Assembly: GCA_951406725.2 (NCBI GenBank)
Contig: OX597831.1
Span: forward strand, 39,246,001-39,310,000
Length of the DNA: 64,000 nucleotides
Direction of reading: 5' to 3'
Source: Octopus vulgaris
Lineage: Eukaryota
In this document: positions 9,487-40,702 of the stretch, one piece after another
Position numbering within the stretch: the first letter of the stretch is position 1
Layout: each line of letters opens with the position of its first letter
Made by a program: the position numbers and the translations under genes
The notes under the pieces: model-generated
What the model saw: only the letters and a program-made list of their open reading frames with translations
Told to the model about the DNA's origin: nothing
The model's database searches: none

Positions 9487-9534
9487 GTCTCTGATGAAGG
9501 GATATCCTTAATATCTCAGACACAGCTGTAAGAC
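9487..9534 (+). ncRNA. Minimal hammerhead ribozyme motif, mutated (GACA for GAAA), in a PLE terminal-repeat-like fragment
   Basis: Helix I gtct/agac; CUGAUGA; helix II gggatat/atatctc; palindromic helix III ACAGCTGT; cleavage triplet GUA. Confidence 0.75.
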
Positions 9535-12289
9535 TAACTTTCTCTTTATAAATGTCCTGAAAATTCCACACAACCTTGGCTTTGTTGTCTAATTATATCT
9601 AACATGTATATACATGTATGTATGTATGTATGTATGTATGTATGTATGTATGTATGTATGTATGTATGTATGTATGTATGTATGTATGTATGTATGTATG
9701 TATGTATGTATGTATGTATGGTCATCTAAGAAAAATGCACGCGTTTCTTTGTTAACGCAGTGGGTATACTAGTATTTATATTATATAGTAGTATCATCAC
9801 AGATCCATTGCAGGCTATGTAACCAATCAGTTTCGCTCACGAGTTAGGCGATAACCTAGGACGGCGCACGTCAGAAGGGCCGGTGTAAAAAGGGTTGGTT
9901 TGATAACCTAAGACGGCTCGCTGATACTGGATGTCAGCAAGTATCACATCACATCTGATTTGTATCTTCTGTAAAAACAGCTTTTGCAAGACGTTCAGAA
10001 GGGAATTCATCAAGGGTTATACTCCGAGTGGCTCTAGAAGCATACTAGGTGATGTTTGACCAAGGTATCAGACAATAGGATTGAACTAGAGGCTGCGTGG
10101 TTGTGAAGCGAACTGTTTAACTACAAAGATATTCCTATGTCTGTTTAATATATATAATAATTGAAGAAATCGAATAAATACATTTTAAAGATCAACGTCG
10201 TTATCAATAATTCAATTTTTGGTTTTATACCTATGAAATATTTTCTTTTAAACATTATCCATAAATTTAACGGCTTACTTGTAGGACTTTATGAAACCAA
10301 CAGTTTCCTGTTAAATCAAAATAATGGAGAAAGACCTGAAAATTACTGAGGTTTTTCTGCACAAAAAAATAATAATATTAGGAGTAAATTTTAAGTATTT
10401 AATCGAAAACTTTAAGGCTGAAATATAACAAATTCTACAACTTTTGATTTATAACCTTAAAAATATTTTATCTGGTGAATTTACTCCTAAATTGAACATC
10501 ATTCTTGCAGGAAATGATCAAAACGAAAGCTTCTCCCATATTAAAAGATAATAAACGGAAAACGAATTTAAAGTTTGTGAAGTTATTTTTCCCAATAACA
10601 ATAAAAAACATAATAATTCAATAGATTTTTGAATAAATAAACTATCACTGGCAGTAGCAGGCACCAAAATTCTTACCAATGCTTTGCTACTTTTAATTTA
10701 TATCTGTAAAATATTTTCTTTCTGGAAGTGGAACTTCTAAATTAAACATTCTTCTCTTTTCTCCCTCATGTCATGTTTGACAGTTTATCTCCCTTTTAGA
10801 TAAATAAATAAATAAATATTTAGTGCAATAGTAATTAGGTTTTGCTATGAGATAGCATGCAACGTTGGTAGGGCATTCTCATGCATTTTGAGTAATTTTT
10901 TTTTTCTTTTACGTTGCTGTCAAAGTCAATTTATTTGGTTGATGAGAAGAAAGTGCAAATCAATGGCAAATTTGTATAGGAAGGCAATTCTCTTGTCTCT
11001 TATGAACTTGACCACTTATATAACCAGTAGTAGCTTCATCAACACCAGCTATGCTAAATCAATATTGGCAGCAACTAAACATGGAGCCATGAAATTCAAA
11101 CTGCAGTATCCTATTGCTGCAAGATTTCTATCTATTCATTTCATGTTTCCATTTATTTTCCCATGCTGGCAGGAGCTGGAAGGTTCGGTTTAAGAATTTA
11201 GACATTTATATGTATTCTTGGGAAGAGAGAGAGAGAAATAGAGACAAACAGACAGACAGACAGACAGAGATTGAGTTTCTCATTTTGTTTTTTCGTTTTA
11301 ATTTTAATATTTTTTTATATTTATTATCTATTCTCTGTGAGTGTGTGTGAGTCCTTGAATATTGAATTATTATTCAAATTGACAGTATATAATAAACTGG
11401 TTCGCCATAGTCGATAGAGTTACATATATAAAAAATAATATAAATAATATATTAGGGAAACTACTCTAGTAGATATTAGACTGGAAGCTTCCATAGTTTA
11501 AGTAGAATTTGATAATCCACAAAATACCAAGTAAAACTAAAGTGGATCTCTATCATTATCACTACTACTACTACTACTATAGGTAGAGTTGGTGGGGTAA
11601 TAATAGTAGTAGCAGCAGCAGCAACATTAGTAGTAGTAGTAGTAGTAGTAGTAGTAGTAGTAGTAGTAGTAGTAGTAGTAGTAGTAACAGCAGCAGCAAC
11701 AGTAGTAGTAGTAGTAGTAGTAGTAGTAGCGGTGGTGGTTGTGGTGGTTGTGGTGGTGGTAGTAGTAGTAGTAGTAGTAGTAGTAGTAGTAGCAGTAGCA
11801 GCAGCAGCAGCAGCAGCAGTAGTAGTAGTAGTCGTCGTCGTCGTCGTCGTAGTAGTAGTTTCATGTATGGTGAAATCCCTCTTGCCGATCGCGGATTATT
11901 CTTGTCACACACAAAAGGAATATTTAATTACAAAAATAACCTAATACAACTTGACAACAGGCTTGAATAAATAAAGGCCGTTGAATCACTAATATTTCCA
12001 CTATACTTACATAAAGCGTTTTCTTTTACGTACTTACTCAATCTTCTAGGAAATGCAGTCAAATTTCCCTCGTATTACATTAAAACAGAAGAGGTTTTAT
12101 TACCGTCACTCGCAAGAGAGCTTGAGTTGGTAGCATGAGCCATACTTTATTTTCACTCATTGTCTTAGGTGTCTATGCGGTCGAGAGTAGACGTTGGCAC
12201 ACTCTGGCCTCAGCAAAACCTTGAGGATTTGACAGTTAGAAGCAGAGTGAGGGTAGCAGCAGTACTAGATCGGTCATCGTTGTTAAGTG

Positions 12290-12418
12290 AGTGGTTTGAG
12301 GCATCGTGAAATAAAATGCTTTTCTTAAAGAAAACAATTCACTGACTGGGCTAGGAATCGAAACTACGATCTTAAGATCATGAGCTACCAACGCCCTAAC
12401 CACTAAACCGTGCGCCTC
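12290..12418 (-). mobile_element. tRNA-headed SINE fragment (family C, like 37484)
   Basis: Reverse complement reads gaggcgcacggtttagtggttagggcgttgg..catgatcttaagatcgtagtttcgattcc. Confidence 0.7.
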
Positions 12419-12664
12419 GTATGAGATAATGCGGTTCCGATGACAAAGAGGAGTGTAGTTAGCGCTGGACGCTGTCTAACCAGGGCTTGTGTTTAACAAC
12501 AACGAAAACAGCTTCAACAGCAATATAAAAGACAAGATTTAATTATAAGGGCATCAGAAATCAGCCCCAAACGCCCTAACCACTAAGCCGCGCGCCTAAT
12601 ATGAGATGATTTAGTGCCAATTGTGCTTCACCTACTAAAATAGACAGTATAGCTAGTTACTGTC

Positions 12665-12830
12665 AAAAACACCAGGACTTACAAACACATATAACATACA
12701 GAAAATTGCACTACTAGGCACTGCACACATCCGACGCAGAACACTTTCCATACAATAACCATCAGAGTATCACAAAAAATCACAGCACATACCTAAGGCA
12801 CACAGAGTCTAATAATAATAATAATAATAA
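12665..12830 (+). mobile_element. 3' end of an R4/Dong-like non-LTR retrotransposon with (TAA)n tail
   Basis: KTPGLTNTYNIQKIALLGTAHIRRRTLSIQ* is the typical C-terminus of this clade; short 3' UTR then TAA repeats. Confidence 0.78.
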
Positions 12831-12839
12831 CAACAACAA

Positions 12840-13015
12840 CATTGGAAAAATACCTTAGGAATGAGAACCCAGGCTCGAAATTCCCCGAGGACACGTGATA
12901 AAGGCTGGAGAGTACATCATCTGAAACGTTGTGTTAACAACGAACAAGATGAGGATAAATATCCGTCGAATGTAAATAATGTACATAATTCCTCATCTCT
13001 CAAATATAGAACTGA
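12840..13015 (+). mobile_element. PLE terminal-repeat-like element with degenerate minimal HHR (12890-12935); second copy at 31585-31690
   Basis: gacac-GTGATAA-aggctg..-GAAACGTT-gtgtt; the 31601 copy keeps CTGATGA but has lost GAAAC; both share gatgaggayaaatatccgtc..atgtaaataatgtacata. Confidence 0.7.
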
Positions 13016-39940: not shown

Positions 39941-39944
39941 TGAA

Positions 39945-40043
39945 TACCTATTTCTTTATTACCCACAAGAAGCTAAACACAGAGAGGACAAACAAGGACA
40001 TACGAACGGATTAAGTCGATTATATCGACCCCAGTGCGTAACT
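39945..40043 (-). mobile_element. SINE B 3' fragment
   Basis: Reverse complement of cagttacgcactggggtcgatataatcgacttaatccgtt..aaagaaataggtatt. Confidence 0.85.
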
Positions 40044-40262
40044 GTTATTTATATATATTAATTATATATATTTATATATATACATATATTTATAAATCGT
40101 GACGCATATTTGCCATTTGAATATGGCTAACCCCTAAGGGTGGATGCTACTGTAGTTTGTAGCCCCAGGAAGATATCTCCTCCAGCTGGCTATAGACACA
40201 CTATCTGTGCCCTATCAATATTTGTGAAGGGAAGTCATCCTTCCCGTCTTCAACTTATGATA

Positions 40263-40307
40263 CACACGGACTCGAGTTTCAAGGTGTTTAACTATCATCA
40301 GCGTGTG
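40263..40307 (-). ncRNA. Minimal hammerhead ribozyme, core intact
   Basis: cacacg-CTGATGA-t-agtt-aaac-acct-t-GAAAC-TCGA-GTC-cgtgtg: 6-bp helix I, palindromic helix III ACTCGAGT, GUC triplet; one mismatch in helix II. Confidence 0.8.
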
Positions 40308-40657
40308 ACAGTCATAGTTGTCGACGAGAATTCAGTTTCCCTCACAAACACATATACTTTTTCCAGTGTCGATTGACACTGATATTGAAAAAGTGAAATC
40401 AAACAATTATAGTGTGTCTATAGCCAGATGGAGGAGATATCTTCCTTGGGCTACAAACTAGAGTAGCATCCACCCTTAGGGGTTAGCCATATTCAAATGG
40501 CAAATATGCGTCACGATGTGTTACCGCTACTGTTTATAACTCGCTCTGAGATTTATCATTGTTTGATTTCACTTTTTCAATATCAGTGTCAATCGACACT
40601 GGAAAAAGTATATGTATTTGTGAGGGAAACTGAATTCTCGTCGACAACTATGAATGT

Positions 40658-40702
40658 CACACGCTGATGATAGGTAAACACCTTGAAGCTCGAGTCCGTG
40701 TG
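40658..40702 (+). ncRNA. Minimal hammerhead ribozyme with GAAG in place of GAAA
   Basis: cacacg-CTGATGA-t-aggt-aaac-acct-t-GAAG-CTCGA-GTC-cgtgtg; perfect helix II. Confidence 0.75.

What the first reader, a model, noticed from the sequence alone, without database searches (positions are those of the whole stretch)
9487..40702. Nine minimal hammerhead motifs from about four repeat families in one window
Seen: family 1 at 9487 and 26405 (helix III ACAGCTGT); family 2 at 12890 and 31601 (ACGT, helix I gacac/gtgtt); family 3 at 15533, 19102 and 27085(-) (ACGT, helix II gag[c/t]/gctc); family 4 at 40263(-) and 40658 (ACTCGAGT). In families 1, 2 and 4 the copies have non-overlapping lesions, so intact ancestors can be reconstructed. 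Each family has its own helix I sequence yet keeps the pairing. Inference: about one HHR relic per 7 kb here would imply a very large PLE-derived ribozyme load in this genome, and the shared ACGT palindrome could allow cross-family dimers.
Basis: partly seen in the sequence, partly recalled or inferred. Interest (0 to 1): 0.7.

Follow-up and report, generated by a model that had tools for sequence, protein, structure and literature searches.

The report
Penelope-element hammerheads with altered cores
The nine motifs are real, mostly worn tail ends of Penelope-type jumping genes and of short repeats that likely ride on them, each with a hammerhead-shaped, predicted self-cutting RNA motif of a known kind; the unusual part is that the most successful families spread with a changed core letter, which would likely slow the cutting (untested).

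Summary
All nine motifs are at the stated places and exceed chance (4 near-perfect hits vs 0.07-0.17 shuffled). They are 8 insertions from about 6 lineages; two are half-motifs; family 4's two copies are arms of one insert. A 1 Mb sample gives 1 relic per 17 kb (about 160,000 genome-wide, lower bound), not 1 per 7 kb. They are the known minimal type-I hammerheads of Penelope-like elements (PLEs). Family 3 ends a Neptune-type PLE with an open RT+GIY-YIG frame; family 2 is a tRNA-headed SINE; family 4 a 352-nt retrozyme-like tandem unit. G5, G8, G12 and all helices stay. Some 'lesions' are therefore family states. Cross-family dimers mostly fail because helix I is swapped too. Cleavage is untested. 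The scan noted the CUGUNGA core before in another genome (e1-10282563).

The parts
9487..9534 (+). Family 1a minimal type-I hammerhead (helix I GTCT/AGAC, 7-bp helix II, palindrome ACAGCTGT); private lesion GAA>GAC. 3' end of a truncated repeat starting near 9352 and ending in a microsatellite
26405..26447 (+). Family 1b half-motif; CCGATGA (U4C) is a recurrent subfamily state; palindrome end and 3' helix I lost. Homology to another 1b copy runs 25860-26527
12890..12935 (+). Family 2 hammerhead (helix I GACAC/GTGTT, ACGT) with two private core lesions, in a head-less copy (about 12810-13017) of a tRNA-headed SINE
31601..31631 (+). Family 2 5' half only (core and helix II start); GAAACGT and 3' helix I deleted; copy spans about 31570-31694
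15533..15568 (+). Family 3 hammerhead with the family's U6 core (CTGTAGA), helix I CTTT/AAAG, helix II GAGC/GCTC, ACGT; 96 nt before the (TA)n-bound 3' end of a 5'-truncated Neptune-type PLE (homology from about 14810 to 15660)
27085..27120 (-). Decayed family 3 hammerhead of an older subfamily (U6 kept; A9 and helix II damaged)
19102..19136 (+). Separate lineage ('3b', helix I GTTT/AAAC); the only motif in the window with a perfect core; many copies of its family read CCGAAGA (U4C)
40096..40921 (+). One family 4 insertion: inverted arm 40096-40411 plus 1.4 tandem units (period 352) ending in (TA)n; retrozyme-like non-coding element
40263..40307 (-). Family 4 hammerhead in the inverted arm (perfect core, helix II lesion G>T)
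40658..40702 (+). Family 4 hammerhead in the main arm (A15.1>G lesion; 6-bp helix I CACACG/CGTGTG extended into a long hairpin; U-U closing pair of helix II; palindrome ACTCGAGT in the master)

Best explanation
These are 3'-end relics of Penelope-like retroelements and of short non-coding repeats that likely ride on them, each carrying a minimal type-I hammerhead motif predicted to fold only as a same-family dimer; the most amplified lineages carry a changed core (U at position 6, or C at position 4) that would likely slow cleavage rather than abolish the fold. Shown: (a) family 3 lies downstream of a stop-free 1,047-codon RT+GIY-YIG frame; copies share a fixed 3' end about 100 nt past the predicted cut site, vary at the 5' end and mostly sit in TA/CA repeats. 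(b) Family 2 has a tRNA-like A/B-box head and inverted partial duplicates. (c) Family 4 is a 352-nt, strongly folding unit in partial tandems and inverted arms. (d) U6 and C4 are majority states of whole families. Inferred: target-primed reverse transcription starts about 100-220 nt downstream of the ribozyme, so only uncut (or re-joined) RNA yields copies that span the cut site. Variants in the U-turn (U4, A6) that slow cutting but keep G5, G8, G12 and the helices would therefore be favoured; residual cutting may need the element's protein. Most window copies are likely inert.
For: Above chance. PLE link: 24 of 30 best endonuclease loci and 10 of 10 long-ORF loci have the family-3 motif downstream, none with A6. 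Pfam RVT_1 E=1.3e-7; GIY-YIG E=0.007, below its cut-off. TA/CA runs after the 3' end in 20 of 30 family-3 and 21 of 30 family-1 loci; inverted hammerhead copies in 18 of 30 family-2 and 8 of 30 family-1 loci. U6: only 271 of 17,543 exact matches have A6; T in 70 of 73 copies not picked by the exact pattern; 98.0-99.6% T by depth in runs X1, X3, X16, X17 (organism labels A-D). Fold kept: among three subfamily consensuses only N7 and H17 vary, 2 of 36 columns vs 35 of 144 flank columns (P=0.011). H17 is G in 1 of 73. Helix I switches G-C to C-G between clades. Family-4 relatives keep different 8-nt palindromes (ACTCGAGT, ACCATGGT, ACTATAGT). U4C: 85 of 100 listed in a 5,869-match family, 53 of 100 in the 19102-type search, 31 of 100 in family 1. 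A6C slows cleavage strongly in Mg2+ (PMC7151607 passages; PMC3088659 section 8). A PLE hammerhead is protein-assisted and its mutants do not block insertion in vitro (PMC11167929 passages).
Against: No cleavage data exist for any of these motifs. No autonomous ORF was found upstream of families 1, 2, 3b or 4 in the loci held (one isolated family-1 case, L327), so their PLE dependence rests on insertion signatures. Only three subfamily consensuses entered the conservation test, and loop II is invariant too, so plain low divergence or protein binding could explain part of it. Position 6 is also C in 12 and A in 6 of 100 listed copies of an older subfamily, which fits relaxation as well as tuning. 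The intact-ORF copy L121 has no direct 5' pseudo-LTR. 4-bp ACGT dimers are predicted less stable than folded monomers (+4.5 to +7.3 kcal/mol), unlike families 1a and 4 (about -9). Family-4 5' junctions do not cluster at the cut site (1 of 19).
Confidence: 0.72

Rival explanations
1. The U6 and C4 motifs no longer cut at all. The fold is kept as a protein-binding, dimerisation or priming-site structure, or simply hitch-hikes on a successful element.
For: A6C costs more than 10,000-fold in Mg2+ in one ribozyme (PMC7151607 passages). Hammerhead mutants do not affect PLE insertion in vitro and no RNA-seq reads end at the cut site (PMC11167929). Naiads thrive without canonical hammerheads (PMC8557442 passages). 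A second PLE family here (6,740 candidates) has a still more eroded motif. Position 6 takes U, C and A in an old subfamily.
Against: Only the two positions free in active hammerheads (7 and 17) vary between subfamilies, and position 17 avoids G. The variants spare G8 and G12 (their catalytic roles are recalled knowledge). U4C is reported as viable in a viroid (PMC3088659 passage).
Confidence: 0.33
2. U6 is a fully active variant under the element's own conditions (protein-assisted or Mn2+-favoured), and cleavage plus circularisation is the normal route to tandem copies, as proposed for PLEs and retrozymes.
For: Protein-assisted cleavage is shown for one PLE; A6C is rescued by Mn2+; family 4 occurs as up to about 2.1 tandem units with no unique upstream sequence and folds well as a circle (z=-5.2).
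Against: 3' ends lie 96-218 nt past the cut and 5' junctions do not cluster at it. Family-3 copies are seldom duplicated (1 of 30 inverted). The reverse strand of the family-4 unit folds as well (z=-5.4), so the fold score does not show a functional circle.
Confidence: 0.17
3. One reading: different families form mixed dimers through the shared ACGT palindrome and cut each other in trans.
For: Related ACGT clades can form 3-4 helix I pairs at both junctions (3b x 3c: 4+4; 3 x 3b/3c: 3+3).
Against: Family 2 x any family-3 clade gives 1+0 pairs. The ACGT duplex is only -3.7 kcal/mol. Family 3 x 3b/3c dimers are 10-11 kcal/mol above monomers. Same-strand ACGT copies in the window are 2.6-3.6 kb apart and mostly damaged.
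Confidence: 0.06
4. The motifs are chance matches in AT-rich repeat DNA.
For: With 2 core mismatches and weak stems, shuffles give 5-6 hits per window vs 11 observed.
Against: Strict descriptor 4 vs 0.07-0.17; 10 perfect cores per Mb vs 0-1; thousands of exact genome matches vs 0 in reversed controls.
Confidence: 0.01

Closest known systems
Minimal hammerheads (min-HHR) in pseudo-LTRs of metazoan Penelope-like elements (Cervera and de la Pena 2014, PMC4209133; read parts 1-2 of 4 of the main text and parts 1-2 of 3 of the supplement)
   Same: Type-I order, 4-6 bp helix I, extra base after A9, palindromic helix III (ACGU commonest), thousands of single truncated copies in several families, opposite-strand pairs 100-700 bp apart.
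   Different: The cores listed there are CUGANGA or the compensated U3-A8; none of the rows I saw in fig. S3 has U6 or C4, and no cephalopod is listed. Load here (about 160,000 relics; about 28,000 exact near-master matches) exceeds the 2,000-9,000 per genome quoted there, though methods differ.
Neptune/Nematis-type EN+ Penelope-like elements (Craig et al. 2021, PMC8557442; passages and supplement search)
   Same: RT followed by C-terminal GIY-YIG, CX4CxxC linker, DKG motif, (TA)n targets, heavy 5' truncation, hammerhead near the 3' end.
   Different: Hammerhead core U6; long pyrimidine-rich 3' tract. Clade not fixed by a tree. The family's motifs are not in that paper's supplement text.
Non-LTR retrozymes of animals (Cervera and de la Pena 2020, PMC7229834; passages)
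   Same: Family 4: 352-nt non-coding unit, 42% GC, tandem, type-I hammerhead, highly self-paired.
   Different: Only 1-2 units per locus, plus PLE-type inverted arms and a fixed 3' end in (TA)n; 8-nt palindromic helix III; circular RNA not shown.
Hammerhead-bearing SINE-like elements of Schistosoma (as reviewed in PMC6765202; passages)
   Same: Family 2: promoter-like head followed by a type-I hammerhead.
   Different: Minimal ACGT hammerhead, an (AAT)n spacer and PLE-type inverted duplications; not tandem.
Natural core variants A6C (phage Bcep176) and U4C (viroid) (PMC3088659 section 8 and passages; PMC7151607 passages)
   Same: Same core positions changed; low but detectable activity reported.
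   Different: Those are rare single cases; here U6 and C4 are majority states of families with thousands of copies, and the base at 6 is U.

Membership tests
Minimal type-I hammerhead of PLEs | Core CUGANGA...GAAA...UH in the family master | tested here: met
   Families 1a, 2, 4: A6 in 99 of 100 and 66 of 67; canonical majority
Minimal type-I hammerhead of PLEs | Same canonical core in family 3 and the U4C lineages | tested here: not met
   A6 in 271 of 17,543; C4 in 85 of 100 and 53 of 100; filed as variants
Minimal type-I hammerhead of PLEs | Helix I and II pairing, extra base after A9 | tested here: met
   G-C/C-G switch in helix I between clades; family 4 closes helix II with U-U, a tolerated pair per PMC3088659
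Minimal type-I hammerhead of PLEs | Palindromic helix III region | tested here: met
   ACGT, ACAGCTGT, ACTCGAGT; other palindromes in relatives
Minimal type-I hammerhead of PLEs | Self-cleavage as a dimer | not testable with these tools
   No raw RNA reads listed; only energy estimates
EN+ Penelope-like element, Neptune/Nematis type (family 3) | Single frame with RT then GIY-YIG | tested here: met
   L121:3384-6524, 1,047 codons; RVT_1 above cut-off, GIY-YIG E=0.007 below cut-off; GIY-YIG residues visible in the sequence
EN+ Penelope-like element, Neptune/Nematis type (family 3) | CX2-5CxxC linker and (TA)n targets | tested here: met
   CX4CxxC; TA/CA runs in 20 of 30 loci; definition from PMC8557442
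EN+ Penelope-like element, Neptune/Nematis type (family 3) | Pseudo-LTR tandem at both ends | tested here: inconclusive
   No direct 5' repeat in L121; not checked by self-comparison in the other long copies
EN+ Penelope-like element, Neptune/Nematis type (family 3) | RT phylogeny places it in Neptune | not tested
   No reference proteins aligned
Autonomous PLE (families 1, 3b) | RT/EN frame upstream of the motif | tested here: inconclusive
   None within 1.5 kb in the loci held, but long low-complexity 3' tracts may hide it
Non-LTR retrozyme (family 4) | 170-400-nt non-coding tandem unit, GC below 45%, with type-I hammerhead | tested here: met
   352 nt, 41.8% GC, up to about 2.1 units
Non-LTR retrozyme (family 4) | Canonical loop 1-loop 2 tertiary contact | tested here: inconclusive
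   Helix I extends through an internal loop; the conserved contact bases were not assessed
Non-LTR retrozyme (family 4) | Expressed as circular RNA | not testable with these tools
   No raw reads laid on this family
tRNA-derived SINE (family 2) | 5' head with A and B boxes | tested here: met
   Both in 17 of 30 loci, B-box part in 20 of 30; parent tRNA not resolved; both window copies lack the head

The most novel reading that the evidence does not exclude
Penelope elements in this genome have repeatedly evolved down-tuned hammerheads: A6U in a lineage of more than 17,000 exact copies with intact ORFs, and U4C in at least two other lineages. These are a natural class of slow or protein-gated ribozymes that standard CUGANGA searches miss and that make up most of the genome's hammerhead load. 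The same PLE machinery also spreads a hammerhead SINE and a retrozyme-like circle, which would confirm the proposed PLE-retrozyme partnership.
Probability: 0.35. Interest if true: 0.62.

Novelty: new variant of a known kind. Interest (0 to 1): 0.42.

Why it matters
Many minimal hammerheads from truncated PLEs is a known feature of animal genomes, so the count alone is ordinary. What matters is that the largest families amplified with a core change thought to cripple cleavage while keeping the rest of the ribozyme. What the PLE hammerhead is for is an open question, and these lineages give a natural A6/U6 and U4/C4 comparison that a simple cleavage assay can test. Descriptor-based counts would miss most of this load. 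Family 4 offers insertion-signature support for PLEs moving retrozymes.

Tried and rejected
Rfam scan at E<=5: the 150 rows shown were microsatellite-driven hits, nearly all miRNA models, none a hammerhead; 303 lower rows were not shown, so this is uninformative. The repeat finder was swamped by microsatellites apart from the family-4 inverted arm. Pfam on the C-terminal fragment alone: no hit. Expression: no RNA holder listed with raw reads; contigs cannot show cut ends. The first read-laying could not report position 6, so it was repeated on an A6 copy. Host gene for an intron test: 58 of 109 long frames scanned, only transposon domains hit. Window strand bias 7:1 (P=0.07) and sample 32:26 (P=0.51) say nothing without gene models. 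Search for an autonomous partner of families 1, 2, 4 through a second endonuclease family: it has its own eroded motif instead. Idea that the older 27085-type subfamily keeps A6: rejected, T in 82 of 100. Idea that 5' ends mark the cut site: 1 of 19. mis-parsed two examples; only its palindrome energies are used. Searches failed and were redone. A fourth sample batch was not obtained, so the random sample is 1.0 Mb and under-covers the smaller chromosomes. Lunse et al. (RNA Biol, PLE hammerhead dimers) is not held: I saw only its title and it may already list such variants.
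Full report
Setting. The window is G000:C18:39246001-39310000 in a 2.8-Gb genome of 227 contigs. It is 35% GC and about 26% tandem repeat. An octopus-like host is my inference from this make-up and is the label used in earlier scan notes; I did not test it. No host exon was found among 58 of 109 long frames scanned; hits were mariner and LINE domains.

Observation. All nine motifs exist at the stated starts. A descriptor (core, helix I and II of at least 3 bp, palindromic helix III) finds one perfect core (19102) and four hits with at most one mismatch, against 0 and 0.07-0.17 in shuffles; with two mismatches and weak stems the excess shrinks (11 vs 5-6). 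Six family profiles recover exactly these nine. Two are half-motifs (26405, 31601) and one is badly decayed (27085). The family-4 pair is one insertion with an inverted arm, so there are eight events.

Load. In 100 stretches of 10 kb spread over chromosomes C1-C18 and C20, the six profiles gave 58 relics and the reversed control none. That is 1 per 17 kb, or about 160,000 genome-wide (123,000-210,000); 100 kb flanking the window gave 5. The strict descriptor gave 10 perfect cores per Mb against 0-1 in six shuffles, and showed further families outside my profiles, so the estimate is a lower bound. Exact pattern counts, each with 0 in the reversed control: family 3, 17,543; a sister family absent from the window, 5,869; family 2, 4,211; family 1, 584; 19102-type, 133 (partly overlapping); family 4, 67 (2,844 first-look candidates including relatives).

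Family 3 (15533, 27085). Copies share a 3' end about 100 nt after the predicted cut, mostly followed by TA or CA runs (20 of 30). Longer copies run upstream into a GIY-YIG domain with a CX4CxxC linker. A search with that domain gave 16,444 candidates, 150 scored at 90-100% identity. L121 holds a stop-free frame of 1,047 codons with RT and endonuclease, followed about 500 nt later by the motif. By the features in PMC8557442 (passages) this is a Neptune/Nematis-type PLE; no tree was built. The core is CUGUNGA: 93 of the first 100 matches have T at position 6, only 271 of 17,543 have A, and 24 of 30 endonuclease loci plus 10 of 10 long-ORF loci carry the motif with no A6. In 73 copies not chosen by the exact pattern (but matched within 6 substitutions, and rich in the young subfamily) position 6 is T70/C2/A1, position 7 is T40/A13/G10/C10 and position 17 is A40/T26/C6/G1; other core positions vary only sporadically. 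A6 copies are scattered through the tree (output partly cut). An older subfamily is T82/C12/A6 of 100. Laid on an A6 copy, contigs of four runs under four organism labels read T at 98.0-99.6% of depth, while position 7 is mixed; how distant these organisms are is unknown. Among three subfamily consensuses (64 of 106 copies clustered) only positions 7 and 17 differ in the 36-nt motif, against 35 of 144 flank columns (P=0.011).

U4C lineages. The clade with helix I GTTT/AAAC, a compensatory switch from CTTT/AAAG, keeps A6 but often has C4: 85 of 100 listed in the 5,869-match family, and 53 CCG, 31 CTGA and 16 family-3 types of 100 in the 19102-type search. The perfect core at 19102 may thus be an older state or a CpG-decay product; I cannot tell. 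Family 1 splits by loop II: 1a is canonical (17 of 17 loci), 1b has C4 in 6 of 13 (31 of 100 listed overall). The window's 9487 is 1a and 26405 is 1b, so merging them into one ancestor mixes subfamilies.

Family 2 (12890, 31601). Core canonical (A6 in 99, U4 in 98 of 100). Upstream lie an (AAT)n spacer and a tRNA-like head with A and B boxes (both in 17 of 30 loci); 18 of 30 have an inverted partial copy. No PLE frame was found upstream. It is a SINE that inserts in PLE fashion; it does not favour TA runs (3 of 30).

Family 4 (40096-40921). A 352-nt unit, 42% GC, 94-98% identical among the best copies, in partial tandems of up to about 2.1 units, often with inverted arms, ending in (TA)n, with no unique upstream sequence in 20 loci chosen for covering the query. 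The hammerhead caps a long hairpin; the circular fold has z=-5.2, but the reverse strand scores alike. Diverged relatives keep tandem units and different 8-nt palindromes. This fits the non-LTR retrozymes of PMC7229834 (passages), which proposed PLEs as movers; the inverted arms and TA-bound 3' end agree with that.

Mechanism. Minimal hammerheads lack a stable helix III and work, weakly, as dimers (PMC4209133). In a type-I double hammerhead the strand after the palindrome carries the 3' arm of helix I, so helix I is intermolecular too (follows from the topology). Same-family dimers are favourable for families 1a and 4 (about -9 kcal/mol against monomers) and unfavourable for the ACGT families (+4.5 to +7.3); family 2 cannot pair with family-3 clades (1+0 bp). 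Insert 3' ends lie 96-218 nt past the cut and 5' junctions ignore it (1 of 19), so genomic copies came from uncut or re-joined RNA. This matches PMC11167929 (passages): internal priming, ribozyme mutants without effect on insertion, cleavage only with protein. Changes at position 6 lower activity sharply (PMC3088659 section 8; PMC7151607 passages), and U4 contacts the A6-N7 phosphate. Both variants hit this turn and spare G5, G8 and G12. I therefore favour slowed or protein-gated cleavage (about 0.45) over a dead but retained fold (0.33) or full activity (0.17); none is tested.

Novelty. PLE minimal hammerheads in large numbers are known. For A6U in print: 'hammerhead'+'A6U' listed one paper, on twister ribozymes, seen as a listing only; 'A6C' three papers; searches with octopus, cephalopod, Neptune and SINE terms returned only PMC8557442, PMC4209133 and a squid genome paper. 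The fig. S3 rows of PMC4209133 show no U6 or C4 core (part 3 not read). Lunse et al. 2017 could not be read and subscription journals and bioRxiv supplements are not covered, so prior description is not excluded. Earlier scan notes report the same CUGUNGA core in another genome and other core variants in octopus genomes; I had found U6 before consulting them. Verdict: real, a new variant of a known kind, interest 0.42.

Noticed in passing
window 1186-2357 (+): Decayed PLE frame (RT 24% identical to L121's, E=1.5e-11; endonuclease start 45% to a second family), cut off by a SINE at about 2358.
   Followed up: partly
L319-L332, about 200-300 nt after the endonuclease stop: A second abundant PLE family (6,740 candidates) has a more eroded hammerhead-like motif: CGAUGA with one core base missing and a long palindrome near AACCAATTGGTT.
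   Followed up: partly
window 61770-61957 (+): 81% relative of family 4's 3' part, starting just past the hammerhead; no ribozyme left.
   Followed up: partly
L273:7256-7665; L282:4304-4366 and 9851-9907: Diverged family-4 relatives; L273 has a 363-nt tandem unit with U4C and palindrome ACCATGGT.
   Followed up: partly
L081, L294, L267, L290, L301, L311, L313: Further hammerhead families with perfect cores and other palindromes (ACGTACGT, ACGCGT, ACAATTGT, ACGATCGT, ATCGCCGGCGAT) not covered by my profiles.
   Followed up: no
window 31823-32915 (-): Mariner-type transposase remnants (PF01359, PF17906).
   Followed up: no
window 59874-60251 (-): zf-RVT domain of a LINE remnant.
   Followed up: no
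window 4219-4324: Near-perfect 100-nt palindrome, probably a MITE-like remnant.
   Followed up: no
window 3798-3956, 4009-4200 and many copies; 19950-20330, 38240-38650: Two or three very abundant short interspersed repeats with about 10-15 copies each in the window.
   Followed up: no
window 47394-48370: Direct duplication of about 480 nt, 84% identical.
   Followed up: no
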